From: Verrucomicrobiota bacterium
GTDB lineage: Bacteria > Verrucomicrobiota > Verrucomicrobiia > Limisphaerales > BJHT01
Direction of reading: 5' to 3'
Length of the DNA: 64,000 nucleotides
NCBI GenBank assembly: GCA_014193395.1
Contig: BJHT01000001.1
Span: 14,112 to 78,111 of the forward strand
Positions 26,427 through 60,193 of this stretch are shown here, piece after piece; within the stretch, counting starts at the first letter, position 1; each line of letters starts with the position of its first letter. The position numbers and the translations under genes are program-made. Under the pieces are notes generated by a model that saw nothing but the letters and a program-made list of their open reading frames with translations, made no database searches and was not told the origin of the DNA.

Positions 26427-26897
26427 TCACGTGGGCCGGATGCGGAAGAGCGGCTGGCCGAATTCCACGGGCTTGGTGTTCTCGGCCACGACCTGGGTGA
26501 TGACGCCTTTGACCTCCGCTTTGATTTCGTTCATCACCTTCATGGCTTCGATGATGCACACGACGGTGTCGGGTCCGACTTCCGTGCCGACGGCGACATA
26601 GGGTGCCGACTCCGGAGAAGGGGAGAGATAGAACGTCCCGATCATCGGCGATTTGATCTCGGCGTCGCCCGTGCTCTTGGGAGCCGGGGCCATCAAGGCC
26701 GGGGCTGCCGGTGCGGGAGCCGCCTGAATCATGGGAACACCCGCCGGTTGCGGGGCGTCTTCGAGGGCGGCACCACCGCCGCCGCCTTGCAGTCCGCGTT
26801 TGAGGCGGACTTTGAAACCTTCCTTTTCCAACTCGAACTCCGAGATGGAGTTTTTCCGCATCAGATCAATGATCGCTTTGATGTCTTTCAGGTCCAC
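26427..26897 (-). CDS. accB: Acetyl-CoA carboxylase biotin carboxyl carrier protein
   Basis: Biotinylation motif EAMKVMNEI with an Ala/Pro-rich linker. The likely start is GTG (V)DLKDIKAIIDLM at 26897. The alternative ATG at 26948 would add 17 codons. Confidence 0.9.
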   Translation of the reverse strand: MDLKDIKAIIDLMRKNSISEFELEKEGFKVRLKRGLQGGGGGAALEDAPQPAGVPMIQAAPAPAAPALMAPAPKSTGDAEIKSPMIGTFYLSPSPESAPYVAVGTEVGPDTVVCIIEAMKVMNEIKAEVKGVITQVVAENTKPVEFGQPLFRIRPT

Positions 26898-27107
26898 AAA
26901 TGCTCTCCCATGGGTTGGAATTGATCGGGCCGATAAATCGGCAAGCACTGAAATTGCGAGTTACAAAACGCCGACGGTTTGCTGAGGTTGGCCACGGTTT
27001 GATCGCACATTTCAAATACGACGGCACGCTAGGGAGGACGCAGAAATGCGTCAAGAGAAGTTTCCCGCGCTCTGACGAGGATAAGCCCGCGAAGGCGGCT
27101 TGCAGGC

Positions 27108-27548
27108 TTAAATCGCCGTTTTTATTAGCGATAAAGCCCCATCCAATCCGAGCAGATAAGAGTGCGGACCAAATCCGCAAATCTGCCCGCGGCACACGGC
27201 GGCGATCATCGAATGATGCCGGAATTCCTCGCGGGCGTGGATGTTCGAGAGATGGATTTCCACGGTGGGAATTCCCGTCGCCGAGATGGCATCGCGAAGG
27301 GCGATGCTCGTGTGGGTGTAGGCTCCGGCGTTGATCACGACTGCGGCAAACTCACCCACTGCCTGCTGAATCCAAGTGACCAATTCGCCTTCGGAATTGC
27401 TCTGCCGAAAATCCACGGCGACTCCGAGTTCGGCGGCCCGCTTTTGCACCATCACCTCGATTTGGGCCAAGGTGGTCTTTCCGTAAATCCCCGGCTCGCG
27501 CTTGCCGAGCAGGTTGAGATTCGGGCCGTTCAAGAACAAGAGTTTCAT
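27108..27548 (-). CDS. aroQ: Type II 3-dehydroquinate dehydratase
   Basis: [23 protein letters not shown].., [16 protein letters not shown] and [17 protein letters not shown]. Confidence 0.95.
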
Positions 27549-37044: not shown

Positions 37045-38379
37045 ATGAATCCTAACACCCCTGCGGCCAGCGCCGCTTCCCGCCGGACTTTCCTCAAATC
37101 CTCCACCACCGCCGCCGTCCTCGCCGGCGGCGCACTCGGCAGCCCCCTCGCCTTCCCGAGCCTGTCGCGCGCGGCCAACGCCAGCGACAAACTCAAGATC
37201 GGTTTCGTCGGCTGCGGCGGCCGCGGCACCGGCGCGGCCAACCAGGCCCTCAGCGGCGACAGCAACGTCGTCCTCTGGTCCATGGGCGAAGTCTTCCGCG
37301 ACAAAATCGATTCCAGCCTCGATTCCCTCAAAACCGTTTTCAAAGACCAGCCCAACAAAATTGATGTCGCCGAAGAGCGGAAATTTGTCGGCCTCGACGC
37401 CTACCAGAAGGTCATCGACAGCGGCGTGGACGTGGTGATTCTCACCACCTCGCCCGGCTTCCGTCCGATGCACATCAAGGCCGCCATCGACGCCGGCAAG
37501 CATGTCTTCTGCGAAAAGCCCATGGCCGTCGATGGCCCCGGCCTGCGCTCGGTGATGGAAAGCGTGAAAAAGGCGAAGGAGAAAAAACTCGCGCTCGTGG
37601 ACGGCTTCGTCTGGCGCTGGACCTACGCCAACCGCGAGTCCTATGAAAAAATCCACAACGGCGCGATCGGCGACATCATGGCCGTCTATGCCTCCTATTA
37701 CACCGGCTCGGTGGACCGCTATCCCAAGTGGAACCGCACCAACACCAAGACCGACCTCGAGTGGATGCTCCGCCGTTGGTACTATTTCACCTGGCTCAGC
37801 GGCGATCACATCGTCGAGCAGTCCGTTCACAGCGTGGACAAGCTCCTGTGGGCCATGAAGGACGAGCCGCCCGTGAGTTGCATCGGCACCGGCGGCCGCC
37901 AGCTCAAAACCTCCGAGGAATACGGCCACATCTACGACCACTTCTGCGTTGAGTATAAGTGGGAGAGCGGCGTCAAGGGCTACCTCTTCGCGCGCCAGTT
38001 CGACAAGTGCTACAACGCCAACACCGACACCGTGTTCGGCACCAAGGGCGTCTATGAAGGCGAGAGCGGCAGCAAACGCCACGTCATCCGCGGCGCGGAC
38101 GCGTGGCGCTGGAAAGGCACCGTCAACAACGGCTACCAGACCGAGCACGACGAAATGTATGCCTCCATCCGCGCCGGCAATCCCCTCAACACCGGCGACC
38201 GTTTTTGCAAGACCACCCTCGCCGCCATCATGGGTCGCATGGCCGCCTACACCGGCAAGGAAATCACCTGGGACATGGCCCTCAACTCGCAGGAAGACAC
38301 CTTCCCCAAAAACCTTACCTGGGACTCGAAGATTCCCATGCCGCCCGTGGCCATGCCCGGCGTCACGATGTTCTCCTGA
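37045..38379 (+). CDS. Gfo/Idh/MocA family oxidoreductase with Tat signal
   Basis: SRRTFLKSSTTAAVLAGG is a twin-arginine signal. The Rossmann motif is KIGFVGCGGRGTG, and the FCEKPMA motif is present. Confidence 0.85.
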   Translation: MNPNTPAASAASRRTFLKSSTTAAVLAGGALGSPLAFPSLSRAANASDKLKIGFVGCGGRGTGAANQALSGDSNVVLWSMGEVFRDKIDSSLDSLKTVFKDQPNKIDVAEERKFVGLDAYQKVIDSGVDVVILTTSPGFRPMHIKAAIDAGKHVFCEKPMAVDGPGLRSVMESVKKAKEKKLALVDGFVWRWTYANRESYEKIHNGAIGDIMAVYASYYTGSVDRYPKWNRTNTKTDLEWMLRRWYYFTWLSGDHIVEQSVHSVDKLLWAMKDEPPVSCIGTGGRQLKTSEEYGHIYDHFCVEYKWESGVKGYLFARQFDKCYNANTDTVFGTKGVYEGESGSKRHVIRGADAWRWKGTVNNGYQTEHDEMYASIRAGNPLNTGDRFCKTTLAAIMGRMAAYTGKEITWDMALNSQEDTFPKNLTWDSKIPMPPVAMPGVTMFS

Positions 38380-38656: not shown

Positions 38657-40093
38657 TCACGCGAAAATTTCCCTCACCGCCCGCGCCTCCTCAACGCCGG
38701 TGAGGCGCTGGTCGAGGCCTTGGAACGGAAAGATCAGCCGCTCGTGATCAAAGCCCAGCGCGTAAAGCAGCGTGGCGTGGAAATCATGCACGCTCACTTT
38801 ATCCACCGCGGCCTTGAAGCCGATGTCATCGGTCGCGCCGTAGTGAATGCCGCCTTTTACGCCGCCACCCGCCAGCCAGTACGTGAACGCGTGCGGGTTG
38901 TGATCGCGCCCGGGCTTGTTCGATTTCTGTGCGATCGGCAGGCGGCCGAACTCGCCGCCGCAGACGACGAGCGTGTCCTCCAGCAGCCCGCGCTGCGCGA
39001 GGTCGATGAGCAGTCCGGCGAAGGGCTGATCCGTCTCGCGCGCGAAGCCGCCGTGGTTGCCGACGATGTCGTTGTGCCCGTCCCACGAGAGCTGGTTGTC
39101 CATGCCGCCGCTGTAAATCTGAATGAACCGCGTGCCCCGCTCGATCAACCGCCGCGCCATCACGCATTGCGCCGCCATGTGCGCGCAATGCGGCTGATCG
39201 AGGCCGTAGAGCTTGCGGATGTGCTCCGGCTCGTGCGTGAGATCGAACGCCTCCGGCGCCGCGGTCTGCATCCGATACGCCAGCTCGAAGCTCTCGATGC
39301 GCGCGTTGAGTTCAGCTTCGGCGCCAGAGTTCCCGAGCTGCATCCGGTTCAAACGCGCGAGCAGATCAAGCTGCGCGCGCTGGCGGTCAGCGGTGAGATC
39401 GGCGGGGCGCGCGAGATTTTCCATCGGCGCGCCTTTGGGCTTGAGCCAGGTCCCTTGAAAAACGCCGGGCAGAAAACCCGCGGTCCAGTTGCTCGCGTGG
39501 CCCTTGGGCAGGCCGCGGTCCTTGGGATCGCTCATCACGATGAATGCCGGCAGATCGTCGCTCACCGAGCCGAGGCCGTAGGTCACCCACGAGCCGGCGC
39601 TCGGATGCCCCATGCGCGTGGTGCCGGTGTTCATCATGAACAGCGCGGGCGAATGGTTGTTCGACTCCGTGTGCAGCGAGTGGATGAACGCCATCCGGTC
39701 CACTTGCTGCGCGAGATTCGGGAACAGCGAGCTGACCCACGAGCCGCTCCGCCCGTGTTGCGCCCAGTCGAACGGCGACTTCATCAACGGCCCGACCGCG
39801 CCGGGAAAAAAGCCGGTCTTCGGGTCAAAGTCCGGCAGCGGCTGGCCGTCGCGCTTCTGCAATTCCGGTTTGTAATCCCACGTGTCCACCTGGCTCTGGC
39901 CGCCGTTCATGAACAGCCAGATCACGGCCTTGGCGCGCGGTGGCGCGTGCGGCGCCTTGCGTGCGAGCGGATTGCTCGCGGACGCCGCGAGGCCGCTGCG
40001 CGCGAGCAGACTCTGCAGCGCGACCACGCCGAAGCCCGCGCCCGCGCGCTGGAAAAAGTGACGACGATTGAGCGGGGTGGAGAAATTTTTCAT
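38657..40093 (-). CDS. DUF1501 domain protein (sulfatase-like), Tat signal
   Basis: MKNFSTPLNRRHFFQRAGAGFG.., WDGHND, GEFGRLP and GRDHNP. Confidence 0.9.
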   Translation of the reverse strand: MKNFSTPLNRRHFFQRAGAGFGVVALQSLLARSGLAASASNPLARKAPHAPPRAKAVIWLFMNGGQSQVDTWDYKPELQKRDGQPLPDFDPKTGFFPGAVGPLMKSPFDWAQHGRSGSWVSSLFPNLAQQVDRMAFIHSLHTESNNHSPALFMMNTGTTRMGHPSAGSWVTYGLGSVSDDLPAFIVMSDPKDRGLPKGHASNWTAGFLPGVFQGTWLKPKGAPMENLARPADLTADRQRAQLDLLARLNRMQLGNSGAEAELNARIESFELAYRMQTAAPEAFDLTHEPEHIRKLYGLDQPHCAHMAAQCVMARRLIERGTRFIQIYSGGMDNQLSWDGHNDIVGNHGGFARETDQPFAGLLIDLAQRGLLEDTLVVCGGEFGRLPIAQKSNKPGRDHNPHAFTYWLAGGGVKGGIHYGATDDIGFKAAVDKVSVHDFHATLLYALGFDHERLIFPFQGLDQRLTGVEEARAVREIFA

Positions 40094-40128
40094 GAGCGGG
40101 TGTGATCAAACGAGACGGTTGGGAGCTT

Positions 40129-40197
40129 GTAGCCGCCGACGTGAGGAGGCGGAGGGCTTGTCTGCGGTACGATCCGCCTCCTCACGGCGGCGGCTAC
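40129..40197. repeat. Palindromic element GTAGCCGCCGACGTGAGGAGGCGGA-loop-TCCGCCTCCTCACGGCGGCGGCTAC, copy A
   Basis: The arms are ~25 nt, near-perfect, with an ~20-nt variable loop. Other copies lie at 47374..47443 and 56512..56581. Confidence 0.95.
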
Positions 40198-40207
40198 GGG
40201 TGGCGGT

Positions 40208-43200
40208 TCAATTGACATAAACAAACTCATTCAACGCCAGCAGCGTCTGGCAAAAATCCGTCAGCGCCAGCGTGCGCGCCCCGGCTTTTCCCGACGGCCC
40301 GGCGGCCTCCAAACCGGCGGTGATGAACGCCGTGGTCGCCTGCAATTCGGCGAGCTGCGGCGGGCGGGCAAGGGCGAGCGTGTAGCCGTAAGTGATGAGC
40401 TTGGTGAGATCATCCGTTGCGGCCTCGGTTTCGACGCGGCGGGCGAAGGCGTTGGCCCATTGGCGCGCCTGCGGGCTGTTCATCAGCAGCAACGCCTGCG
40501 GTGCGACGATGGTCGTCGGGCGCAGGCCCTGGCTGGTCAGCGGCTCCGGCGCATCGAAGACGACCATCGAGTTCACGAGGCGGCTGCGTTTCACCGTGAA
40601 GTAAATGCTCCGGCGCGTGCTGGTTTCGTTGAGCGTGCCGGGTCCGAACATCGCGGGATCGAGCACGCCGCTCACCGCGAGAATGCTGTCGCGCACAGCC
40701 TCGCTCTCGAGACGTTGCGGGACGTGACGCAGGAAGAGCGCGTTGTCGGGATCGGCGGCGGCCTTGGCGGCATCGTGCGCGCTGCTCTGCTGATAGGCGG
40801 CGCTGGTGAGGACGAGGCGATGCAGGGTTTTCAGTTTCCAACCGCTGCGGATGAACTCACCCGCGAGCCAGTCGAGCAGCGCGGGATTCGAGGGCGCGAC
40901 GCCGGTCTTGCCGAAGTCGTTCGGCGTCGGCACGAGGCCGCGGCCGAAATGATGCTGCCACACGCGATTCACCGCCACGCGGGCCATCAATGCGCCCGCG
41001 CCGTGCTCGACATCGGTAAGCCAGTTCGCGAGCGAACGGCGGCGGCCGGAATATTTCGCGCCGGGTGGCGGCGACCATTGCCAGCGCGTTTCGTCCGCGT
41101 CGCGCATGAGCACCTGGAGGAAGCCCTGCGCCGCGAGGGCCTGCTTTTGATTCGTGTCGCCGCGCTTGAGAATGTGGGTTTCTTTGAGGAATGGGGGGCC
41201 TTGCGAGTGCATCACGATGGGCGTGTGACCCTCGGCGCAGATCATCGCTTGCGTCGCGTTGCGCGGCTCCTTGGCGGCGTGCTCGGCGACTTTCGCCTGC
41301 GCGGCGAGCCACGTCGGCTGCCGTTTTTTCCAGTGTTCGAACAGCGTCTTGGACTGCGCCTCGGTGGGCTTGCCGCCCGTGCGCAACACCTGCAGCGCGG
41401 CTGCGAGATCCGCGGCCACCGTGCCGCCGGGCAGCGCCGGCTCGGCCGCGTCGGTCACGGAGAAACGCGGCCGCCCGATGATGTGCTGCTTGTTGACGGT
41501 GAACTGCATTTCCAAAACGAGCTTCTCCTCGGCCGCGAGCGCGAGCGGTTGCGCGAGCACGAAAACGGCGGCGTGATCCTTGCCAATGCCGCCGAGGTCC
41601 ACGGCCCAGCCGGTGCTCGGGTTGTCATCGAGCGACGACGCGATGCTCAGCGAGTTTTTGTTCTGCTCGTAATCGGCGAACGCACGCGCGAGCGGAATGA
41701 CGCGCGCCGCGCCGTTCGCGGGCTGCACGCGCAGCACGAATTTGCCGAGGGCGAAATTGCCGTTGCCCGCGCGGCCCGGGCCGCCGCTCTTCATGCTCGG
41801 ATGCGCGAGCGTTTCCAGCCGCACCGCCGTGATGCGGCGCAGCGCCGCGGGTGCGGTGATCGTGTGGATGGCGTTCGCAGGCGCCGTGCCTTCGACGAGA
41901 TACGAGCCGTCGCCGAGCGGCTTGAAGGTCTCGGTCGTGTTGTTCGCCTTCAACGAATCGGGCACGAGCAGGGTCCACGCGTTCGTCTCCGGCTCGGCCT
42001 TGGCGCTGGCGAGCCACGTCGCGAAGGCGGGGCGCAGGGCGTCCTCGGTGGTTTGCAGCGCCGCCGTGAGTTCGGTGCGCTGGGTTTGCCACGCGGTTTT
42101 TTGCGCGCGGTTTTTTTCCTGATCCAAGTCCAGCTCGACGTTGCTGCGCACGGTCGTCGTGAAGGTCGTCAGCAGCCGGTAATAATCCTGCGTCGGGATG
42201 GGATCGAACTTGTGATCGTGACAGCGCGCGCAGCCGACGGTGAGGCCGAGGAAGGCGCTGGCCGTGGTCGAGAGCATGTCGTCCATCGCGTCGTAGCGCG
42301 TGCGCTCGACTTCGTTGGCGGTGATCTGCGTGGGGAAAACGCCCGCGCCGAGAAAACCCGTGGCCGTCATCGCGAACGCATCGCCGGGGGCAAACTCGTC
42401 ACCCGCGAGCTGCCAGCGCGCGAACTGATCGAAAGGCAGGTCGGCGTTCAGCGCCTTGATGACAAAGTCGCGGTAATGAAACGCGTGCGGCCGGTCGTAG
42501 TCGTGCTCGAAGCCGCTGCTCTCGGCGAAGCGCGCCACGTCCAGCCAGTGCCGCGCCCAGCGTTCGCCGTAGGCCGGCGAGTCGAGCAATTGGTCGATCA
42601 GCGCGGCGAAGGCTTTGGGCGATGGGATCGATGAACCGGACTGTTGCGCGACAAACGCCGCCACATCCTTCGGCGCCGGCGGCAGGCCGGTGAGGCCGAG
42701 AAACGCGCGTCGCAGCAGCGTGCGCGGATCGGCGGGGGGATTGAACGCGAGGCCCTTGGTCTTCGCTGCCGCGAGCAGGAACGCGTCCACCGGATGCGCC
42801 GCGCCCGCGGGCGGCGTCACCTTGGCGAGCGGCTGAAAGGCCCACCACTGACGGTCAGTGGCGCTCACGACCGAGCGGTCGCGCGCCGGAGTTTTGCCCG
42901 CGATGAGCGGCGCGTCGTAAGGCGCGCCGAGGTCGATCCACGCGGTGAGCTTCGCGATGGCGGCGGCGGGGAGTTGCGGTTGTTTCTCGGGCATTCCGGG
43001 TTTCAGCTCGTGACGGACGAGCTTGAGCAAACGGCTCGCGGACGCGTTGAACGGCGTGACGGCCGAACCCTCGGTGCCGCCGCGCAGGAGTCCCTCGCGC
43101 GTGGTGAGGTCGAAGTCATTGCGCGTCTTCTCGCCGCCGTGGCACTTCACGCAATGCTCGCGCAGGAGCGGCGCAATGTCGGTGCGGAACAGCTCGAGGC

Positions 43201-43324
43201 CGCGAGTCATCCGGGCAGCGTGGTCCGGGGGAAGCGCGGCGGGGGCGGCGGCTGGGGCGGCGAAGGAATGGCCGCAAAGAACGCCAAGAGACGCAAAGAG
43301 GAACAAGGCGTGGCGGAGCCGCAC
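40208..43324 (-). CDS. PSCyt1 / DUF1549 / DUF1553 protein
   Basis: CVKCHGG heme motif; DUF1549 (LLRRAFLGLTGLPPAP, ERWARHWLDVARFAES); CARCHDHKFDP; DUF1553 (NRVWQHHFGRGLV); C-terminus LNEFVYVN. The start is tentatively GTG at 43324 (VRLRHALFLFASLGVLCGHSFA signal peptide). The ORF is open up to the ATG at 43519. Confidence 0.85.
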   Translation of the reverse strand: MRLRHALFLFASLGVLCGHSFAAPAAAPAALPPDHAARMTRGLELFRTDIAPLLREHCVKCHGGEKTRNDFDLTTREGLLRGGTEGSAVTPFNASASRLLKLVRHELKPGMPEKQPQLPAAAIAKLTAWIDLGAPYDAPLIAGKTPARDRSVVSATDRQWWAFQPLAKVTPPAGAAHPVDAFLLAAAKTKGLAFNPPADPRTLLRRAFLGLTGLPPAPKDVAAFVAQQSGSSIPSPKAFAALIDQLLDSPAYGERWARHWLDVARFAESSGFEHDYDRPHAFHYRDFVIKALNADLPFDQFARWQLAGDEFAPGDAFAMTATGFLGAGVFPTQITANEVERTRYDAMDDMLSTTASAFLGLTVGCARCHDHKFDPIPTQDYYRLLTTFTTTVRSNVELDLDQEKNRAQKTAWQTQRTELTAALQTTEDALRPAFATWLASAKAEPETNAWTLLVPDSLKANNTTETFKPLGDGSYLVEGTAPANAIHTITAPAALRRITAVRLETLAHPSMKSGGPGRAGNGNFALGKFVLRVQPANGAARVIPLARAFADYEQNKNSLSIASSLDDNPSTGWAVDLGGIGKDHAAVFVLAQPLALAAEEKLVLEMQFTVNKQHIIGRPRFSVTDAAEPALPGGTVAADLAAALQVLRTGGKPTEAQSKTLFEHWKKRQPTWLAAQAKVAEHAAKEPRNATQAMICAEGHTPIVMHSQGPPFLKETHILKRGDTNQKQALAAQGFLQVLMRDADETRWQWSPPPGAKYSGRRRSLANWLTDVEHGAGALMARVAVNRVWQHHFGRGLVPTPNDFGKTGVAPSNPALLDWLAGEFIRSGWKLKTLHRLVLTSAAYQQSSAHDAAKAAADPDNALFLRHVPQRLESEAVRDSILAVSGVLDPAMFGPGTLNETSTRRSIYFTVKRSRLVNSMVVFDAPEPLTSQGLRPTTIVAPQALLLMNSPQARQWANAFARRVETEAATDDLTKLITYGYTLALARPPQLAELQATTAFITAGLEAAGPSGKAGARTLALTDFCQTLLALNEFVYVN

Positions 43325-43359
43325 CGCGACTGGAGCGCGACCGGTCCCCGGTCGCAGCG
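43265..43359. repeat. Copy of the 'GGAATGGCCGC-(ACGCAAAGA)n ... GCGACCGGTCCCCGGTCGCAGCG' composite repeat
   Basis: It aligns with 7152..7190 and 7318..7377. It overlaps the 5' end of the PSCyt gene. Confidence 0.8.
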
Positions 43360-43515
43360 CGTGATCCGCGAGGGGTGCGTTGGAGAGCGCGGCACCGGTT
43401 CGCCATGCGGAGCCGCTGCGGGCGGGGACCGCCCGCGCGCCGAACGCGTCGCTGCCCGCGACCGTTCCGAAAGCTGGCAGCGCAAAAGACACAGCGAGAT
43501 TGGGAGAGTTCAGCT

Positions 43516-44529
43516 TCATAATTTGCGCGGGGCTTTGAGTTTCGCGATGAGGAAGTCATCGATCTTCGGATGCTTCACGTCGGGCGCGCCGGGATAGACG
43601 AACTCGCATTCGACACCGGCGGCTTTGCATTTTTCCTGAAACTTCACGCCGTAGTTCGAGGTGTGCGTCGGGTCTTTCTGTTCCTGCCCCATCGCGGGCG
43701 GCGCGGAGTAGAGCAGGTAGAGCGGCGGATCGCCGGCGGAGACGTGTTCCATTGGCGAGTATTCCTTGATCCACGGCAGCACGGATTCGCGCGCGGCGAG
43801 GAAGGCGGCGAACTGCGTGTCGCGCGTTTTGTTGTCCTTCGGGTCGGGCATGAAGCCGAACGCGTGGCCGCCGTAACGGCTGTTCGGCGTCCACTCCTTG
43901 AGCTGCTGCGGGTCGAGCGAGGTCTGCGCGCCGTTCACGGCGGCGCACCAGAGGCGCGTGGATTCGCGCGCGACGGGGTCGGCGCTTTTCGGATCGGCGA
44001 GGTCGTCGTGCAGCGCGAGCCACAGGCTCGAGCACGCGCCCGCGGAGCCGCCGGTCGCGCCGATGCGCTGCTTGTCGAGGTTCCACGCGGCGGCCTGGCT
44101 GCGGACGAACTGGAGGGCGCGCGCGGCGTCGTGGAGCGGCCAGGAGACGGGCGGCTTCACGCCCGCGAGCTGCGCCTGCGTGGTGTAGCGGTAATTGATC
44201 GAGACGACCGAGATGCCCGCCGCGAGATACTTGTCGAGGCTCCCGACGCCTTTCTTGTCGCCCGCGACCCAGCCGCCGCCGTGGATGTGGAAAACGACGG
44301 GCGTGGGCGTGTCGGACTTGGCCTGATAGAAATCGAGCACCTGCCGCTCGTGCGTGCCGTACGGGACATCGGCGTGCGTGGGCGCGACTTGCGGCGCAGA
44401 GGGTTTCGCGGCGCGCGTGGGCGCAGGCGTGGGCGTAGGCTTGGCCGCGGGCTTTGCGGGCGCGTCCGCGGCGAAGGCGGGCGTGTTAAAGGCGCAAAGT
44501 GTGGCGAGGAGCAGGCCGATTTTTTTCAT
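43516..44529 (-). CDS. Secreted alpha/beta hydrolase (esterase/lipase, HGGG type)
   Basis: A signal peptide is present. The oxyanion motif is HIHGGGWVAGDK and the nucleophile elbow is GGSAGA. Confidence 0.85.
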   Translation of the reverse strand: MKKIGLLLATLCAFNTPAFAADAPAKPAAKPTPTPAPTRAAKPSAPQVAPTHADVPYGTHERQVLDFYQAKSDTPTPVVFHIHGGGWVAGDKKGVGSLDKYLAAGISVVSINYRYTTQAQLAGVKPPVSWPLHDAARALQFVRSQAAAWNLDKQRIGATGGSAGACSSLWLALHDDLADPKSADPVARESTRLWCAAVNGAQTSLDPQQLKEWTPNSRYGGHAFGFMPDPKDNKTRDTQFAAFLAARESVLPWIKEYSPMEHVSAGDPPLYLLYSAPPAMGQEQKDPTHTSNYGVKFQEKCKAAGVECEFVYPGAPDVKHPKIDDFLIAKLKAPRKL

Positions 44530-55254: not shown

Positions 55255-56448
55255 TCAGGCCGGAATCTCGAACAGATACACCGGCGACGTGTTGCCCGGA
55301 TAGGAGCCGTCGGCGGTTTTCGGACGACCGTTGCCGGCGCTGGCCTTGTTCATCGAGACGACGGCAAAGCGTTTGGCGTCGGGGTGTAGGGTGACGGAGT
55401 GGCAGTTGGCCAGCGCCGTGTGGGTGAAGAACGGCTCCTTCTCGCCGAGGCGCAGGAACATGACCTTGCCGTTGCCGGGCTGGCCGCTGGTGACGAGGAT
55501 CAGGTAGCCGCCGGGATGCGCGGCGACATCGAGGACGAAGCCGTCTTTGGCCGCGCCGAAACGCCAGTCGGACTGCGGTTTGCCGGTCGCGACGTCGAAG
55601 CGCAGGAGCGCGGGCGCGCCTTCGAGGAAGCCGCCGCCCGCGGGTTCACAGCCGCCGACGAGCAGGGATTTGCCACCGTCAATGAACGCGAGCATTCGCA
55701 GTCCGGCCACGTCCTGCAGGCGCGAGAGTTTGTGAAAAACGGAGGCATCGAATTCGCGCACGGGTTTTTGCGTGGCGAAATCCCAGAGCGTGACGCGGCC
55801 TTTCAAGTCGGCGAATGCAACGAGCTTGCCCTCGGGCGCAAAGGTCACGGCGAAGACGTCCTCGGGCGCGCGGTGCTCGGTGACGAGTTTGCCGGCGGTG
55901 GTCCAGATGCGGACGAACTGGTCGCGGCCGCAGGTCGCGAGGTGCTGGCCGTCGGGGGAGACGGCGAGGCGGCGAATCCAGCCGTCGTGCGCGGCGGCGT
56001 TTTCCCACAGGGGCTTGGGCGCGTCGCCTTCGTAGGGGGTGGCGAGGAGCCTGCCCCAGGTGTCGGCGACGTAGAGGACTTTTTCCTTGGGATGGAACGC
56101 GAGGTTTTGCACCCAGCCGTTGCAGCCGGTGAGATGCGGCAGGGGCACGAGTTCGACGGGGGAGTCTTCGGCGGGCGGCTTCGCGGCTTTGGCGGGCTTG
56201 GTGTTTTTGGGCGCGGCTTTTTTCGGGGCGTCGTCGAGGAGGTCGATGTCCGCTGCGGCTGCGGCGGCGGGCGCGGGCGGGGCCTTCTTTTTCTCGACGA
56301 CGCTCCAGCGGCGCACGGTGCCCTCGAACGCGCCGGCGGCGAGGAAATTGCCGCACGGGCTGAAGCGCGCGATGGCGAGCTGGCGGTCGCAGGGGAACAT
56401 CTTGAGTTCCTTGGGCGGGACAAAACTGGCGGCGGGTTGGTCGGGCAT
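55255..56448 (-). CDS. WD40/beta-propeller repeat protein
   Basis: WD-like strand endings are present (VRRWS, VRIWT, VTLWD). A Lys/Ala/Pro-rich insert lies after the first blade. The gene follows a DUF1501 gene. Confidence 0.75.
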   Translation of the reverse strand: MPDQPAASFVPPKELKMFPCDRQLAIARFSPCGNFLAAGAFEGTVRRWSVVEKKKAPPAPAAAAAADIDLLDDAPKKAAPKNTKPAKAAKPPAEDSPVELVPLPHLTGCNGWVQNLAFHPKEKVLYVADTWGRLLATPYEGDAPKPLWENAAAHDGWIRRLAVSPDGQHLATCGRDQFVRIWTTAGKLVTEHRAPEDVFAVTFAPEGKLVAFADLKGRVTLWDFATQKPVREFDASVFHKLSRLQDVAGLRMLAFIDGGKSLLVGGCEPAGGGFLEGAPALLRFDVATGKPQSDWRFGAAKDGFVLDVAAHPGGYLILVTSGQPGNGKVMFLRLGEKEPFFTHTALANCHSVTLHPDAKRFAVVSMNKASAGNGRPKTADGSYPGNTSPVYLFEIPA

Positions 56449-56511
56449 GGCGGGAGCGGGTTGGGGGGTTAAAGCGTTGGAAGAAGGCGGGGCTGCGGTG
56501 TGTGGCGAGTC

Positions 56512-56581
56512 GTAGCCGCCGACGTGAGGAGGCGGATCGGGCGCTGGGCGGGGGACTCCGCCTCCTCACGTCGGCGGCTAC
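56512..56581. repeat. Palindromic element GTAGCCGCCGACGTGAGGAGGCGGA...TCCGCCTCCTCACGTCGGCGGCTAC, copy C
   Basis: The arms are a perfect 25 nt. It lies in the intergenic gap between the DUF1501 stop and the WD40 start. Confidence 0.95.
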
Positions 56582-56602
56582 AGGGTGTGTGAACCCAAGT
56601 CC

Positions 56603-57883
56603 TCACGCGAGCGCCTCCTTGATCGGGGCCATCTCGTCGTGGGCGAGCGGCAGGGGCTGGCTGTTGTTGTTGTATTCCACTTTTTTGGAGTCGATGCCGA
56701 GGGCGTTGAACCAGGTGTGGAAGACCGCGCCGATGTCGTGGCCCGCGTCCTTCACGTCGGTGCCCTGGTCGTTCGTCGCACCAACGACCGCGCCGGCTTT
56801 CAGGCCGCAGCCGGCCATCGCGATGCTCCACGCCTCGGGCCAGTGGTCGCGGCCGACGTGGCCGTTGATGCGCGGGGTACGGCCAAACTCGCTCATCGCA
56901 ATGACGAGCGTCTGCTCAAGCAGGCCGGTCGCGGCGAGGTCCTCGACGATGGCGGCGAAGGCGCGGTCGAACTTTGGCACGAGCGAGGCGTGGGCGTTGA
57001 AATTATCGCCGTGGGTGTCCCAGCCGTAGCTGTTGACCTTCACGAAGCGCACGCCGGCCTCGATCATGTTGCGCGCGATGAGCATGTGCTGGCCGATCTC
57101 GGTGCGGCCGTAGCGGTCGAGTTCCTTCGCAGCCATTTTGCTCGTGTCGAAAATCTCGGCGCGTTTCATCAGCTCGCGCGCGGTGTCGAAGACGTAGCTG
57201 CTGGCTTCGGTGAACGCGGGGCGGCGTTGCGCGGCGTAGCGTTTGTTCAGCAGTTCCCGCAGCTCGTTGCGCTCGTCGTCCTCGTCGGCGGTGAGCGCGG
57301 CGGGGCGGAGTAAATCCTCGGGCGGCTTGCCGTCACCGAACGCGAGCGAGCCGTATTTCGGCCCGAGAAAACCGGCGTCCTCGGTCTTGAATCCGCCGCT
57401 GCCGGGCTTCACCCAGACGTAGGGCGGAAGCTTCGAGGCGGTCGGTCCCATGAGCTTGGCGATGGCGGAGCCGAAGTAGGGATAGGCGACGCCGCGGTTC
57501 TTCGGATCACCGCGCTGGATGCGGGCGACGCCGGACGAGTGGGCGTTGTCCTTGGTGCAGAGATTGCGAACGATGCAGAGGCGATGGGCCTGCTTGGCGG
57601 ACTGCGGCATGAGTTCGGAAAAGTGCGTGCCGGGCACGCTGGTCTTGATGGTGCGGAACGGCCCGCCGAACTCGGTGTTCGGCTTCGGATCCCAGCTCTC
57701 CAACTGGCTGATGCCACCATCAAGCCAGACGAAGAGGACCTGCTTCTCCTTTTTGCGCAGGGCCTCGGCGGCTTGGGGTGAGACGAGTCCGCCGAGCGCG
57801 CCGAGCGCGAGCGCGCCGGCGGACGCGCCGAGGAACTGGCGGCGCGAGGTGGTGTGTTCCCAGGGTTTGCAAAGGGGGTTCAT
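56603..57883 (-). CDS. DUF1501 domain protein, Tat signal
   Basis: TSRRQFLGASAGALALGA, WDTHGDN, SEFGRTP and GRDHWP. Confidence 0.9.
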   Translation of the reverse strand: MNPLCKPWEHTTSRRQFLGASAGALALGALGGLVSPQAAEALRKKEKQVLFVWLDGGISQLESWDPKPNTEFGGPFRTIKTSVPGTHFSELMPQSAKQAHRLCIVRNLCTKDNAHSSGVARIQRGDPKNRGVAYPYFGSAIAKLMGPTASKLPPYVWVKPGSGGFKTEDAGFLGPKYGSLAFGDGKPPEDLLRPAALTADEDDERNELRELLNKRYAAQRRPAFTEASSYVFDTARELMKRAEIFDTSKMAAKELDRYGRTEIGQHMLIARNMIEAGVRFVKVNSYGWDTHGDNFNAHASLVPKFDRAFAAIVEDLAATGLLEQTLVIAMSEFGRTPRINGHVGRDHWPEAWSIAMAGCGLKAGAVVGATNDQGTDVKDAGHDIGAVFHTWFNALGIDSKKVEYNNNSQPLPLAHDEMAPIKEALA

Positions 57884-58230
57884 ATTGTTGATTGGCTCTT
57901 AAACCGGTTTTTGATCCTTAGCGCTGACTCTTCTAGGTGGAGAATCTTCGTAACTCGCCCGTGAGCCACAACCTTCTGTCCCTCTCGAACCTGAAACTCC
58001 ATTTCGGGATGGACACGATTAAGATGAGCGTCGGGACTAAGAAACCGAAGCAACACTCGGGCGGTTTGGCCCGGATATACCCACTCAACGTCGGGATATT
58101 CGTGATGGGCATCCCAATCGTGGCCATCGTAGTAGAATTGCGATCGGTAACCCGATCGAGCCGGTGTCTTTCGTCCGCCTTGTGCCGAGGACACAAACGT
58201 GATTTCAGCCTCAATGTCTGGAGGATACAT
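57880..58230 (-). CDS. Stand-alone EF-Tu domain III-like protein
   Basis: The 116-aa ORF aligns by eye with EF-Tu domain III through GGRKTPARSGYRSQFYY, YPGQ and FQVREGQKVVAHGRVTKIL. It lies in a low-G+C segment. Its stop overlaps the DUF1501 ATG. Confidence 0.7.
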   Translation of the reverse strand: MYPPDIEAEITFVSSAQGGRKTPARSGYRSQFYYDGHDWDAHHEYPDVEWVYPGQTARVLLRFLSPDAHLNRVHPEMEFQVREGQKVVAHGRVTKILHLEESALRIKNRFKSQSTI

Positions 58231-58306
58231 AGATAGTGCTAACTTGGATCCAAGCTAGACGCCTGACCAGAAACTGGAGAGGCAATGGCATGGGGGCTAG
58301 GACTCA

Positions 58307-59998
58307 TCAGTGATTCGTAAAAAACTCCATGCTCGACAACATCGCCCACGCGAAATGCCCGAGCGCCTTCTCGCGGTCGGCGGAGTGTTTGGCCAGATAC
58401 TTGGAGAGCGCGGCGGTCTCCTCGGGCGCGGGCGGGCGGGCGAGGATGCTGTGGAAGAGTTCGTCGGCGATGGGCGCGGGTTCCTTCAGTGCGGCGACGC
58501 GGGCGAGGAGATTGCCGGGACGCGGCTGGAGCGACCAGAGCACGAGGTCGTTGTTCCGCAGGAAGAGCGCGGCGCGGAGGGTCGGGTTGACACTGAGTTC
58601 GGGTTCCTTGGCAGCGTTGGCGAAGGCGTTGAGAAAGGCTTTCTCGAAATCTTTCTGCGTGTGCTTTTTGCCTTCGATGCCTTCCCAGCCTTTGCCGGCG
58701 ACGACGCGTTCGTGCTCGCCGATGGCGGCGATGAAGGCGCGGGCGAGCTGCTCGGCGGAGAGCGGGCGTTCCTTCGCGACGGTGAAAAGTTCCTCGGGCG
58801 GATTCTTCGCGTCCGCGGGGAGCAGGCTCGTGCGCTGATAGGTCTGCGTGAGCGCGAGTTCGCGGATGAGCCAGCGGAGGTCGAATTTGTGCGCGGTGAT
58901 TTCCTTCGCGAGCAGGTCGAGGAGTTCGGGATGCGATGCGGGATTGTCGCTGTGCAGGAGGTCGAGCGGCTCGACGAGGCCGCGGCCCATGACCTGCCAC
59001 CAGACGCGGTTGGCGAGGTTGCGGGCGAAGAGCGGATTTTCCGGCGAGGCGATTTCCTGCGCGAGCGCCTTGAGCGGACTGAACTTCGGGACTCCAGGGG
59101 CGCGTGTTTTTTTATCTGGCGGCACGGTCCAAAGTTCGTCCTTCGCCGGGTCGGGCAGCGGCACCTCGACACCGAGCGGCACGCGCGGGCCGGTCGCGCC
59201 TTTCGCGCTGCTGAGGACGGAGATGAACTCGTATTTGTTGGTCAGCAGGCCCTCCTGCAACCACGCGGTTTTGTACTCGCCGCCGGCGGCCTGGAGCTTC
59301 GTGTTTTGGAACGCGACGAAGAGGCCGTTGAAATCCACCTGCTTGTAATCTTTCACCGTGAGGTGCTTGTGGCACTGGCAGCATTGCAGGTCCACGCCCA
59401 TGAACAGGCGGCCCGCGTCGCGCGTGACGCCGGGATAGTCGGTGTCCTGCTGGCCGACCTTTTCGAGGCGGCGCGTGATGAAGTAGCCCGCGCCGCGCAG
59501 TTTTTCGTTCTTGAAATCCGGACCGAGAATCTCGCGCGCCATCTGGTCCCACGGCTTGTTCGCGCGGAAGGAATCGGTGAGGTAACGCCGCCACTCGGCA
59601 TTGTCGCCGTTGCGCTCCATGAGCTGGATGTGGAACGCCTCGGCCATCTGCTCCGCAAAGCGCGGCGCGGCGATGAGCTGCTCGATGAGCTTGGCGCGTT
59701 TGTCCGGGGATTGGTCGGCGCGAAATTTCCGCGTTTCTTCGGCGCTGGGAATGGTGCCGCTGAAATCCAACGAGACGCGGCGGAGAAATTCGGCATCGTC
59801 CGCGGGCGGCGCGAGCGGTTGTTTGGCGGCCGCAGCCTTGGCGTTGATGAGCTGGTCGATGCGCGCCGCGATCGATTCGGCGGCGGCGGCATCGGCACCG
59901 GCACCGGCGCGGCCGAAGACCCCGAACGCCACGAGCAGAAAAACAAGCCCGCTGAGGGAGCGGGCGCGCGGGTGGCGGGTGGGTGCCGGGATGTGCAT
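58307..59998 (-). CDS. DUF1549 (PSCyt2) / DUF1553 (PSD1) protein
   Basis: The start is at MHIPAPTRHP with a signal peptide. The motifs are FLRRVSLDFSGTIPS, CCQCHKH and NRVWWQVMGRGLVEPLD. The C-terminus is MEFFTNH. Confidence 0.85.
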   Translation of the reverse strand: MHIPAPTRHPRARSLSGLVFLLVAFGVFGRAGAGADAAAAESIAARIDQLINAKAAAAKQPLAPPADDAEFLRRVSLDFSGTIPSAEETRKFRADQSPDKRAKLIEQLIAAPRFAEQMAEAFHIQLMERNGDNAEWRRYLTDSFRANKPWDQMAREILGPDFKNEKLRGAGYFITRRLEKVGQQDTDYPGVTRDAGRLFMGVDLQCCQCHKHLTVKDYKQVDFNGLFVAFQNTKLQAAGGEYKTAWLQEGLLTNKYEFISVLSSAKGATGPRVPLGVEVPLPDPAKDELWTVPPDKKTRAPGVPKFSPLKALAQEIASPENPLFARNLANRVWWQVMGRGLVEPLDLLHSDNPASHPELLDLLAKEITAHKFDLRWLIRELALTQTYQRTSLLPADAKNPPEELFTVAKERPLSAEQLARAFIAAIGEHERVVAGKGWEGIEGKKHTQKDFEKAFLNAFANAAKEPELSVNPTLRAALFLRNNDLVLWSLQPRPGNLLARVAALKEPAPIADELFHSILARPPAPEETAALSKYLAKHSADREKALGHFAWAMLSSMEFFTNH

Positions 59999-60085
59999 GA
60001 CGCGTAGCCGGACGGGCGGCGCGGGGGAACTATTGAAGCACAAGCGGGGAGCGTGCGTGCGCGGCGCGCGGTCCGACCTTGCCCC

Positions 60086-60193
60086 GGTACCGCAGGCGTC
60101 CTCGCCTGCGAGTTCGGGCGGCGTCTCGCCGCCCGGACCGATTGCCGGGGCGAGGACGCCCCGCAACTCGCAGCCGGGGACGGCTGCGGTACC
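60086..60193. repeat. GC-rich inverted repeat GGTACCGCAGGCGTCCTCGCC ... GGCGAGGACGCC..CTGCGGTACC
   Basis: The inverted repeat has a split right arm. It lies in the divergent gap between 59998 and 60268. Confidence 0.7.

What the first reader, a model, noticed from the sequence alone, without database searches (positions are those of the whole stretch)
57880..58306. Low-G+C islet encoding a stand-alone EF-Tu domain-III mimic inside a DUF1553-DUF1501 operon
A 116-codon ORF sits between a DUF1549/DUF1553 gene (58307..59998) and its DUF1501 partner (56603..57883). At the other such locus in this window (38657..43324) the two genes are adjacent.

- **Similarity:** The product aligns by eye over its whole length with EF-Tu domain III. 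E. coli EF-Tu, from memory, reads ..[51 protein letters not shown]. This ORF reads ..SSAQGGRKTPARSGYRSQFYYDGHDWDA..YPGQ..FQVREGQKVVAHGRVTKIL. There is no GTPase domain and no domain II.
- **Composition:** Hand counts of 60-nt samples inside 57901..58260 give 45-57% G+C. The adjacent 57781..57840 gives about 75%. The ~0.43-kb segment therefore looks foreign.
- **Context:** Its stop codon overlaps the DUF1501 ATG (ATGA, 57880..57883), so it is wired into the operon.

Inference: it could be an EF-Tu decoy or adaptor, for example against EF-Tu-targeting toxins or phage factors, or a tRNA/EF-Ts-binding module. I know of no described role for such a gene in PSD/DUF1501 loci.
Basis: partly seen in the sequence, partly recalled or inferred. 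Interest (0 to 1): 0.7.

Follow-up and report, generated by a model that had tools for sequence, protein, structure and literature searches.

The report
Stray integron cassette encoding EF-Tu mimic
A small foreign gene wedged between two operon genes encodes a free-standing copy of domain III of translation factor EF-Tu; its relatives travel between bacterial phyla as integron gene cassettes, their function has not been studied, and this copy has lost its recombination site.

Summary
ORF 57880..58230 (-) encodes 116 aa that match only EF-Tu domain III: Pfam PF03143 scores 38 bits (cut-off 27), and an AF2 model (pLDDT 94) superposes on EF-Tu D3 at 1.1 Å RMSD, plus one extra C-terminal helix. 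The 423-bp insert (57884..58306) is the lowest-GC stretch of its size in the window (0.52 vs 0.65). Its GC3 is 0.50, against 0.84-0.88 in the neighbouring genes.

Orthologous DUF1553-DUF1501 loci (81-97% identical) lack the gene. Their junction is empty, holds palindromic repeats, or holds an unrelated ORF.

The protein belongs to an undescribed family of at least 158 clusters across several phyla. About half of the 52 examined loci, including all close relatives, are single-ORF cassettes bounded by attC sites in integron-type arrays. The window copy keeps the cassette leader and an L'-R' attC remnant upstream. It has no attC of its own and no integrase nearby, so it is a fossil cassette, probably expressed by operon read-through.

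No link to DUF1553/DUF1501 function was found. The biochemical role (EF-Tu surface mimic, decoy or immunity module) remains inference. Some family members are fused to diverse unknown domains.

The parts
57884..58306 (-). Whole foreign insert (423 bp), lying between the DUF1553 stop codon and the DUF1501 start codon
   Evidence: Homology to the orthologous loci L014, L015, L016, L018 and L073 stops at the TGA and resumes at the ATG. GC is 0.518, the lowest 0.1% of 423-bp windows. No terminal inverted repeats or target-site duplication at the ends.
57880..58230 (-). 116-aa stand-alone EF-Tu domain-III-like protein: a beta-barrel (residues ~5-97) plus a family-specific C-terminal helix (99-114)
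   Evidence: PF03143 at 38 bits. PDB EF-Tu D3 matches at E 1e-10. AF2 model pLDDT 94.3. Foldseek RMSD 1.1-1.2 Å over 98-99 columns to EF-Tu D3. 158 homologues of 105-130 aa. All 14 family-invariant residues are present. GC3 is 0.50.
58231..58243 (-). R'-like core GTTAGCA (58243..58237) and a 6-nt cassette leader before the ATG
   Evidence: Same arrangement as in the homologue cassettes: GTTAGACcact-ATG in L005 and GTTAGGCcact-ATG in L031.
58244..58257 (-). L'-like remnant of an attC site (TAGCTTGGATCcaa) directly upstream of the R' core
   Evidence: The motif GCTTGGNTC-N0-4-GTTAG occurs once in 64 kb and in 0 of 100 shuffles. The best local alignment is to the attC upstream of the L001 homologue, score 23, reached by 0 of 300 shuffles.
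58258..58306 (-). Rest of the 76-nt spacer; it does not form or match an attC
   Evidence: CM R1 scores 4 bits and CM R2 1.5 bits here. The fold is not better than shuffles. No Rfam hit.
57887..57896 (-). Weak R''-like remnant GCCAATCAAC inside the 7-codon C-terminal extension of the ORF; the cassette's own attC is missing beyond this point
   Evidence: Relatives carry GCCTAAC/GTCTAAC 4-8 nt after their stop codon. The window ORF runs past the family's usual end (..RVKSKR*) to the ATGA. There is no attC downstream. By eye only; weak.
58307..59998 (-). Host DUF1549/DUF1553 (PSCyt2/PSD1) gene, upstream operon member
   Evidence: Pfam. Syntenic in L015, L016, L018 and L073.
56603..57883 (-). Host DUF1501 gene; its start codon overlaps the D3 stop codon
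   Evidence: Pfam at 297 bits. Orthologues are 81-97% identical.
55255..56448 (-). Host WD40 gene, third syntenic member of the locus
   Evidence: Present downstream of DUF1501 in every orthologous locus.

Best explanation
The islet is a horizontally acquired, promoterless gene cassette of the integron type that now lies outside any integron. It sits exactly in the 3-36-nt gap that separates the DUF1553 and DUF1501 genes in relatives.

Shown:
- It is foreign and specific to this lineage.
- Its protein is a free-standing EF-Tu domain III with an added C-terminal helix.
- Its closest relatives are single-ORF cassettes bounded by attC sites in cassette arrays of several phyla.
- The window copy keeps the cassette's 5' boundary (L'-R' remnant and leader).
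- It has no attC of its own, and no integrase was detected in the window.

Inferred:
- The 3' attC was deleted. This fused the ORF tail to the DUF1501 start codon (ATGA).
- The gene is therefore immobilised ('domesticated'), transcribed by read-through from the operon promoter, and translationally coupled to DUF1501.
- The integration route itself is unresolved. Candidates are attC x attG, attC x a former resident attC, or illegitimate capture of an array fragment.

Inferred with low confidence (about 0.3):
- The protein works alone as a binding module that presents the EF-Tu domain III surface. It would titrate a factor that normally docks on EF-Tu, such as a toxin, a phage protein, EF-Ts or the tRNA T-arm.
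- It has nothing to do with DUF1553/DUF1501 biochemistry.
For: Foreignness:
- GC3 is 0.50 against 0.84-0.88, and the insert is the lowest-GC 423-bp window of the 64 kb.
- The junction is empty in L016/L017 (cacTGAaccATG) and in L018/L019 (36-nt spacer). It holds non-coding palindromic repeats in the two closest relatives, L073 (97%) and L014 (96%). It holds an unrelated ORF in L015.
- tblastn finds no D3 copy in any of these loci.

Protein:
-.

Cassette family:
- Textbook attC sites (GCCTAAC ... GTTAGGC, ~93-125 nt) flank the homologue in L001, L005 and L009.
- CM R1 gave 49 of 50 hits on the D3 strand.
- CM R2 gave 157 hits at E<=0.01 in 241 kb of D3 loci, against 0 hits at E<=1 in 102 kb of the window plus orthologous loci.
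- By my tally 25 of 52 loci have an attC abutting the D3 ORF, including all eight loci that are at least 66% identical to the window protein.
- The family occurs in Verrucomicrobiales, Acidobacteriota, Ramlibacter, Collimonas, Steroidobacteraceae and Chitinophagales.

Cassette boundary in the window:
-.

No internal signals:
- No promoter-like site and no excess of terminator-like sites.

Literature framework:
- Integrases insert cassettes at genomic attG sites. Such cassettes are expressed from resident promoters, and attC sites are easily lost by replication slippage, giving domestication (Loot et al., bioRxiv 10.1101/2022.09.11.507474).

Acts alone:
- The cassettes hold one ORF each.
- In other members the D3 module is fused to many different partner domains at either end.
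Against: - No attC is detectable in the window with either model, even with filters off.
- Joining the insert ends does not rebuild an attC hairpin: -5.6 kcal/mol against -17 to -29 for real sites.
- The L'-R' remnant is only ~17 nt. It belongs to an upstream attC, which a cleanly excised cassette should not carry to an attG site.
- No GWT-consistent junction could be identified.
- No tyrosine recombinase was found in the 64 kb, using two query integrases only.
- About half of the family loci show no attC with my models. The models came from a subset of attC types, so that figure is a lower bound for cassette carriage.
- Transcription and translation were not measured.
- There is no direct evidence for function. 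PADLOC and PHROGs are silent, and no paper was found.
- The contig comes from a metagenome-assembled genome. Misassembly was not checked against reads.
Confidence: 0.65

Rival explanations
1. The islet is a fragment of a foreign cassette array that was captured by illegitimate or microhomology recombination, for example after transformation. It was not inserted by an integron integrase. Its cassette-like features are inherited from the donor array.
For: - The insert carries an L' remnant of the upstream attC, which lies outside the unit an integrase excises.
- It lacks its own attC.
- No integrase was found in the window.
- No GWT-type junction was recognised.
Against: - The insertion lies exactly between a stop codon and a start codon, at a junction that holds other inserts in relatives. 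That pattern suggests a preferred site or strong selection.
- Loss of attC by replication slippage is expected after integrase-mediated insertion.
- The two routes cannot be told apart from one decayed copy.
Confidence: 0.3
2. The gene is an ancestral member of the DUF1553-DUF1501 operon and works with those proteins. Relatives have lost it.
For: - The ATGA overlap with DUF1501.
- The ORF is intact and keeps all family-invariant residues.
Against: - GC3 is 0.50 against 0.84-0.88.
- The gene is absent from all seven orthologous loci at 81-97% identity, which show four different junction states.
- None of about 60 homologue loci has a DUF1553 or DUF1501 neighbour.
- The second DUF1553-DUF1501 locus in the window lacks it.
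Confidence: 0.03
3. The ORF is a decaying remnant of a duplicated tuf gene, that is, a truncated EF-Tu pseudogene, and not a dedicated stand-alone protein.
For: Databases name the homologues 'elongation factor Tu'. The match covers only the last ~90 residues of EF-Tu.
Against: - Identity to any EF-Tu is only 31-34%.
- At least 158 clusters share the same ~110-125 aa length, start position, family-specific motifs (DWDA, EYPD) and an added C-terminal helix.
- There is no trace of domains I or II upstream, where the 76-nt spacer directly follows the DUF1553 stop.
- The EF-Tu equivalog model scores 38 bits against a cut-off of 522.
Confidence: 0.02
4. Functional rival: the protein does not mimic EF-Tu. 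It merely reuses the barrel as a scaffold, for example as an immunity protein against a toxin unrelated to translation. Alternatively, it is a neutral passenger with no role in this host.
For: - It sits in arrays alongside SUKH/SMI1_KNR4, toxin-antitoxin and unknown cassettes.
- Fusions to DUF5071, CPCC and many unknown domains at either end resemble multi-domain immunity proteins.
- T338, a tRNA T-stem contact in EF-Tu (assignment from memory), is replaced by a near-invariant Asp.
Against: - The EF-Tu motifs GGR.TP, GYRPQFY and REG are kept almost unchanged across phyla. That is more than fold maintenance usually needs.
- The intact ORF, with all invariant residues, argues against pure decay in this host.
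Confidence: 0.35

Closest known systems
EF-Tu domain III (Pfam PF03143, GTP_EFTU_D3)
   Same: The six-stranded beta-barrel superposes at 1.1-1.2 Å. The motifs GGR.TP, GYR(P/S)QFY, PG and REG are kept.
   Different: - There is no GTPase domain and no domain II.
- Identity is 31-34%.
- It has an added C-terminal amphipathic helix (99-114).
- It has the family-specific DWDA and EYPD motifs.
- It is mobile and non-essential.
- It scores far below the EF-Tu equivalog cut-off.
Integron gene cassettes, and isolated cassettes (SALINs) inserted at genomic attG sites (Loot et al., bioRxiv 10.1101/2022.09.11.507474)
   Same: - One short promoterless ORF starting ~10 nt after a GTTRRRY core.
- Homologues lie in attC-bounded arrays.
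- The insert lies outside an integron, downstream of a resident promoter.
- The paper predicts domestication through attC loss.
   Different: - The window copy has no attC at all, so it would not even be scored as a SALIN.
- It retains a piece of an upstream attC instead.
- No integrase was found, and no GWT junction could be defined.
Polymorphic-toxin immunity proteins such as SUKH/SMI1_KNR4 (Zhang et al. 2011, PMC3113570)
   Same: - Small single-domain proteins.
- They occur in arrays of small genes next to SUKH genes (L001, L009).
- They are found fused to varied other domains.
   Different: - No toxin gene is adjacent here or in the loci examined.
- There is no match to any Imm/SUKH model.
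- An immunity function is pure inference.

Membership tests
Pfam PF03143 GTP_EFTU_D3 (domain superfamily) | HMM score above the gathering threshold | tested here: met
   38 bits against 27, E 2.2e-9, profile positions 7-105 of 106.
Pfam PF03143 GTP_EFTU_D3 (domain superfamily) | Beta-barrel fold superposable on EF-Tu domain III | tested here: met
   AF2 model pLDDT 94.3. Foldseek top 50 hits are all EF-Tu D3, RMSD 1.1-1.7 Å, probability 1.00.
Elongation factor Tu (TIGR00485 equivalog) | Full three-domain translational GTPase scoring above the equivalog cut-off | tested here: not met
   37.8 bits against a cut-off of 522.4. Only residues 305-393 of the model match, and domains I and II are absent.
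Integron gene cassette | Single promoterless ORF that starts a few nucleotides after a GTTRRRY (R') core site | tested here: met
   GTTAGCA + 6 nt + ATG. Same layout in L005, L031 and L032. No promoter-like site.
Integron gene cassette | attC recombination site (R''-L''...L'-R' hairpin) at the 3' end of the ORF | tested here: not met
   No hit with CM R1 or R2, filters on or off. The ORF abuts the DUF1501 ATG. Only a weak R''-like decamer remains.
Integron gene cassette | Homologues occur as attC-bounded units in cassette arrays | tested here: met
   25 of 52 loci have an abutting attC, including all loci at least 66% identical to the window protein. 157 CM hits in D3 loci against 0 in controls. 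At every site the best-scoring hit lies on the D3 strand.
Integron (complete) / CALIN / SALIN | Integron integrase (IntI) and attI nearby, or at least one attC | tested here: not met
   No tyrosine recombinase in the 64 kb by tblastn or phmmer with two integrase queries, which is a limited-sensitivity test. No attC. The rest of the genome is not available.
attG-type genomic insertion (Loot et al.) | Junctions of the form genome-G|TT-cassette ... attC-G|WT-genome | tested here: inconclusive
   G|TTAGCA is present, but it is preceded by attC-like rather than host-like sequence. The right junction has lost its attC. The ancestral spacer of this lineage is unknown.
Polymorphic-toxin immunity protein | Encoded next to a cognate toxin domain, or matches a known Imm/SUKH family | tested here: not met
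   No toxin neighbour in the window or in the loci examined. Pfam and NCBIfam give only EF-Tu D3. Co-occurrence with SUKH cassettes in arrays is circumstantial.
Toxin-antitoxin module | Two-gene unit with a partner toxin in the same cassette or operon | tested here: not met
   D3 cassettes contain one ORF between consecutive attC sites. The ~180-aa neighbours in L001 and L003 are unrelated to each other.
Known anti-phage defence systems (PADLOC) / phage protein families (PHROGs) | Match to a curated model | tested here: not met
   0 families in each library at E<=10.

The most novel reading that the evidence does not exclude
Stand-alone EF-Tu domain III proteins are a widespread, horizontally mobile class of molecular mimics of EF-Tu. 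They spread as integron cassettes and are also built into multi-domain proteins. They protect cells by titrating toxins or phage factors that must dock on EF-Tu domain III. Under this reading, the DUF1553|DUF1501 junction in this verrucomicrobial clade is a recurrent landing pad where such promoterless cassettes are captured and fixed under a host promoter.
Probability: 0.25. Interest if true: 0.8.

Novelty: new variant of a known kind. Interest (0 to 1): 0.5.

Why it matters
- It removes a false lead. The gene is not part of DUF1553/DUF1501 biology.
- It turns a single odd ORF into a defined protein family that I could not find described in the literature. The family is a free-standing EF-Tu domain III with an added helix. 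It is conserved at 50-78% identity across at least five phyla, is carried on integron cassettes, and is fused to many unknown domains. Databases currently name its members 'elongation factor Tu', which is wrong.
- It gives a natural example of a step so far proposed mainly from experiments: a cassette stranded outside an integron, stripped of its attC, and plugged into a host operon.
- If the protein really mimics EF-Tu, it would be a compact tool and a new type of defence or immunity module aimed at the many toxins and phages that exploit EF-Tu.

Tried and rejected
1. Intact attC in or beside the islet. Rejected. Methods were a strict pattern plus pairing search, my own structure-aware finder, and covariance models R1 and R2 with and without filters.
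2. Circularly permuted cassette, in which the split attC is rebuilt by joining the insert ends. Rejected. The constrained hairpin is -5.6 kcal/mol and no better than shuffles.
3. The whole 76-nt spacer as a short degenerate attC. Rejected. Only the last ~17 nt resemble an attC.
4. Transposon or MITE insertion. Rejected. No terminal inverted repeats or target-site duplication.
5. A conserved partner gene next to the homologues. None found. The neighbours are unrelated to each other.
6. Integrase near the locus. None in the window. The L005 recombinase next to the array is not clearly an IntI.
7. Defence or phage libraries. No hits.
8. Function from fusion partners. Only DUF5071 and Cys_rich_CPCC are nameable. 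NCBIfam and PDB add nothing, and no papers were found.
9. The L015 alternative insert as a cassette gene. No homologue in the arrays I held. Its wider family was not searched.
10. Other low-GC patches in the window as similar islets. They are ordinary.
11. Known RNA in the spacer. None.
Full report
OBSERVATION.
- The ORF is at 57880..58230 on the minus strand and encodes 116 aa. Its TGA overlaps the ATG of the DUF1501 gene (56603..57883) as ATGA. A 76-nt spacer separates it from the stop codon of the DUF1549/DUF1553 gene (58307..59998).
- GC falls to 0.48-0.57 across 57880-58360, against 0.65-0.75 on either side.
- The 423-bp insert (57884..58306) has GC 0.518. The flanking genes have 0.652 and 0.660, and the whole window has 0.653. 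The insert is in the lowest 0.1% of all 423-bp windows.
- Third-position GC is 0.50 for the ORF and 0.84-0.88 for the DUF1553, DUF1501 and WD40 genes.
- The second DUF1553-DUF1501 pair (40208..43519 and 38657..40093) has no gene between its members, only a 114-nt gap.

WHAT THE PROTEIN IS.
- Pfam PF03143 (EF-Tu C-terminal domain) matches residues 5-96 at 38 bits, above the cut-off of 27.
- NCBIfam EF-Tu models match only their last ~90 positions and score far below their cut-offs.
- PDB EF-Tu chains match at E about 1e-10, over residues ~305-393 only.
- An AlphaFold2 model built on a 32-sequence family alignment has mean pLDDT 94.3. It shows six strands plus a C-terminal helix at residues 99-114.
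- In Foldseek against the PDB, all 50 best hits are EF-Tu domain III. The best have RMSD 1.1-1.2 Å over 98-99 columns, with 29-34% identity across the 50 hits.
- The fold call therefore holds. The protein is not an EF-Tu, because it has no GTPase domain and no domain II.

THE FAMILY.
- A database search returned 158 clusters, nearly all 105-130 aa and 55-78% identical to the window protein. Sources name them 'elongation factor Tu' or 'EF-Tu-like GTPase', which is a mis-annotation.
- The exact window protein is recorded as a hypothetical protein of a Verrucomicrobiota MAG.
- Named genomes carrying a member include Verrucomicrobiales, Acidobacteriota, Bryobacterales, Ramlibacter, Collimonas, Steroidobacteraceae and Chitinophagales.
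- A profile search of 1.84 billion representatives found 56 clusters at E<=1e-30. Many of the best hits are 190-310 aa proteins in which the D3 module sits at the N- or the C-terminus of another domain.
- The nameable partners are DUF5071 (two representatives) and Cys_rich_CPCC. The others match nothing in Pfam, NCBIfam or the PDB.
- The family keeps the EF-Tu motifs GGR.TP, GYR(P/S)QFY, PG and REG. It adds its own near-invariant DWDA and EYPD motifs and the helix motif L..ESA.
- I mapped positions onto E. coli EF-Tu using my own numbering from memory, anchored on Thr382.
  - The T-stem contacts Gln329 and Glu378 are kept (Q31, E83).
  - Thr338 is replaced by Asp (D40).
  - The Doc phosphorylation site Thr382 is Val or Ile in most members and Thr in a few.
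  - The residue mapping comes from the alignment. The functional assignments are from memory and were not tested here.

GENOMIC CONTEXT OF THE FAMILY.
- The homologues are never next to DUF1553 or DUF1501 genes.
- They sit in long runs of small co-directional genes with regular ~100-nt spacers. The runs include BrnT/BrnA, PemK and PIN toxin-antitoxin genes, SUKH/SMI1_KNR4 genes, GrpB, and DUF4160/DUF2442 pairs. Some runs have recombinases or transposases at one end.
- The spacers are textbook attC sites: GCCTAAC ... GTTAGGC, 93-125 nt, with the next ORF starting 10-20 nt after the GTTRRRY core.
- Covariance model R1, built from 20 such sites, found 50 more sites in other D3 loci, 49 of them on the D3 strand.
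- A second-generation model R2 found 157 hits (E<=0.01) in 241 kb of D3 loci. It found none (E<=1) in 102 kb comprising the window and the orthologous DUF1501 loci.
- By my tally 25 of 52 loci have an attC directly abutting the D3 ORF. These include every locus at least 66% identical to the window protein: L020 and L028-L034.
- This is a lower bound. The models miss some attC types that I could see by eye, for example in L002 and L011.
- Each such cassette holds only the D3 ORF.

THE WINDOW COPY AS A CASSETTE.
- On the coding strand, the 19 nt before the leader read TAGCTTGGATCcaaGTTAG. The attC upstream of the L001 homologue reads TAGCTTGGATC---GTTAG.
- The motif is unique in the window and absent from 100 shuffles.
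- The leader, TTAG-CACT..ATG, resembles those of L005 and L031 (TTAGRCCACT ATG).
- Beyond that, the spacer is not an attC.
- At the 3' end the ORF runs seven codons past the family's usual stop, through a weak R''-like GCCAATCAAC, into the ATGA of DUF1501. There is no room for an attC and no trace of one.
- Joining the two ends of the insert does not rebuild an attC.
- There are no transposon-like ends, no promoter-like site, no Rfam match, and no tyrosine recombinase in the window by a limited search.

EMPTY-SITE TEST. The DUF1501 protein has many close orthologues. The table lists the state of the DUF1553|DUF1501 junction in the loci I retrieved.

| Locus | DUF1501 identity | Junction between the DUF1553 stop and the DUF1501 ATG |
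|---|---|---|
| L016/L017 | 85% | cacTGAaccATG, empty |
| L018/L019 | 81% | 36-nt spacer |
| L015 | 88% | unrelated 135-154 aa ORF, GC 0.56, no Pfam match |
| L014 | 96% | ~325 bp of non-coding palindromic repeats |
| L073 | 97% | 519 bp of non-coding palindromic repeats |

- All these loci keep the order DUF1553-DUF1501-WD40.
- Homology to the window stops at the TGA and resumes at the ATG.
- None of these loci contains a D3 gene.
- The D3 gene is therefore a recent acquisition specific to this lineage. The junction is a hot spot that tolerates or attracts insertions.

MECHANISM.
- Shown: foreign origin, cassette ancestry of the family, retention of the cassette 5' boundary, absence of attC and of an integrase, and physical coupling to DUF1501.
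- Inferred: the cassette reached the junction and then lost its attC. This agrees with Loot et al. They showed that integrases insert cassettes at genomic 5'-GWT-3' 'attG' sites, and that such cassettes are expressed when they lie near resident promoters. They also proposed that attC sites are readily deleted by replication slippage, which would domesticate the gene.
- The upstream L' remnant does not fit a clean attC x attG event. Two alternatives remain open: insertion into a former resident attC, or illegitimate capture of an array fragment.
- Expression by read-through and translational coupling is inferred from the absence of promoter or terminator signals and from the ATGA overlap.
- Protein function is the weakest step. 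The available clues are single-gene cassettes, cross-phylum mobility, strong conservation of EF-Tu-like motifs, and promiscuous fusions. Together they fit a self-sufficient binding module that presents the EF-Tu domain III surface, acting as a decoy or immunity factor. A scaffold role unrelated to EF-Tu is about as likely.

COMPARISON AND NOVELTY.
- The element is a variant of a known kind, an integron cassette outside an integron.
- It is unusual in having lost every functional recombination feature and in being embedded in a host operon.
- I found no description of the protein family in the searchable literature. It matches no defence or phage family.
The suggested link to PSD/DUF1501 loci is not supported. 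The decoy idea remains open.

CAVEATS.
- The contig comes from a metagenome-assembled genome.
- The attC models were built from a subset of attC types.
- The functional residue assignments are from memory.
- No expression or binding data exist.

Noticed in passing
window 56511-56582: A near-perfect hairpin with a ~25-bp stem, in the 154-nt gap between the DUF1501 stop and the WD40 start. CM R1 picked it up only because it is a long palindrome; it has no attC core sites. It may be a terminator, an attenuator or a REP-like element.
   Followed up: no
L014 43-369 and L073 2600-3118: In the two closest relatives, the same DUF1553|DUF1501 junction holds 325 and 519 bp of non-coding mirror-image repeats (gtagcgcaggtttccaaacctgctgtgtcgccgatttccaaaccggcggcg and its complement). 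These look like MITE/REP-type elements. L073 has an extra ~270-bp palindromic block.
   Followed up: partly
L015 3035-3499: A third state of the junction: an unrelated 135-154 aa ORF with GC 0.56 against 0.64 in the flanks. It has no Pfam match, and its stop lies 1 nt before the DUF1501 ATG. It is probably another captured foreign gene. Its family was not searched.
   Followed up: partly
P0245-P0358 (representative proteins): The D3 module occurs fused, at the N- or C-terminus, to DUF5071 (P0308, P0358), Cys_rich_CPCC (P0269) and at least eight unrelated, unannotated domains of 90-200 aa.
   Followed up: partly
L011 1185-1700 (also L012, L013, L038): A D3 cassette sits directly after a 6-phosphogluconate dehydrogenase gene. 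Upstream is AT-rich sequence that is not an attC. Downstream there is, by eye, one attC. It is an isolated cassette in a different genome and a natural parallel to the window.
   Followed up: partly
L005 1445-2521 and L015 6695-7993: Tyrosine recombinases lie next to a D3 cassette array (L005) and ~2 kb downstream of the WD40 gene in an orthologous locus (L015, Phage_integrase + SAM_5). Neither matched an integron-integrase model, and no counterpart is present in the window.
   Followed up: partly
window 26700-27330: This is the second-lowest GC patch of the window (0.515). It lies over the start of a biotin-carboxyl-carrier-like gene and the gap before a type II dehydroquinase-like gene (both identified by eye from the translations). 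It is an ordinary intergenic region, not an islet.
   Followed up: partly
window 58307-60166: The mechanical ORF for the DUF1553 gene starts at a TTG 56 codons upstream of the likely ATG at 59998. The orthologues (536-559 aa) support the shorter form.
   Followed up: partly
window 37396-37484: A weak attC-model hit (R1, 17 bits, E 0.05) just outside the second DUF1501 locus. The broader model R2 did not reproduce it, so it is probably chance.
   Followed up: yes
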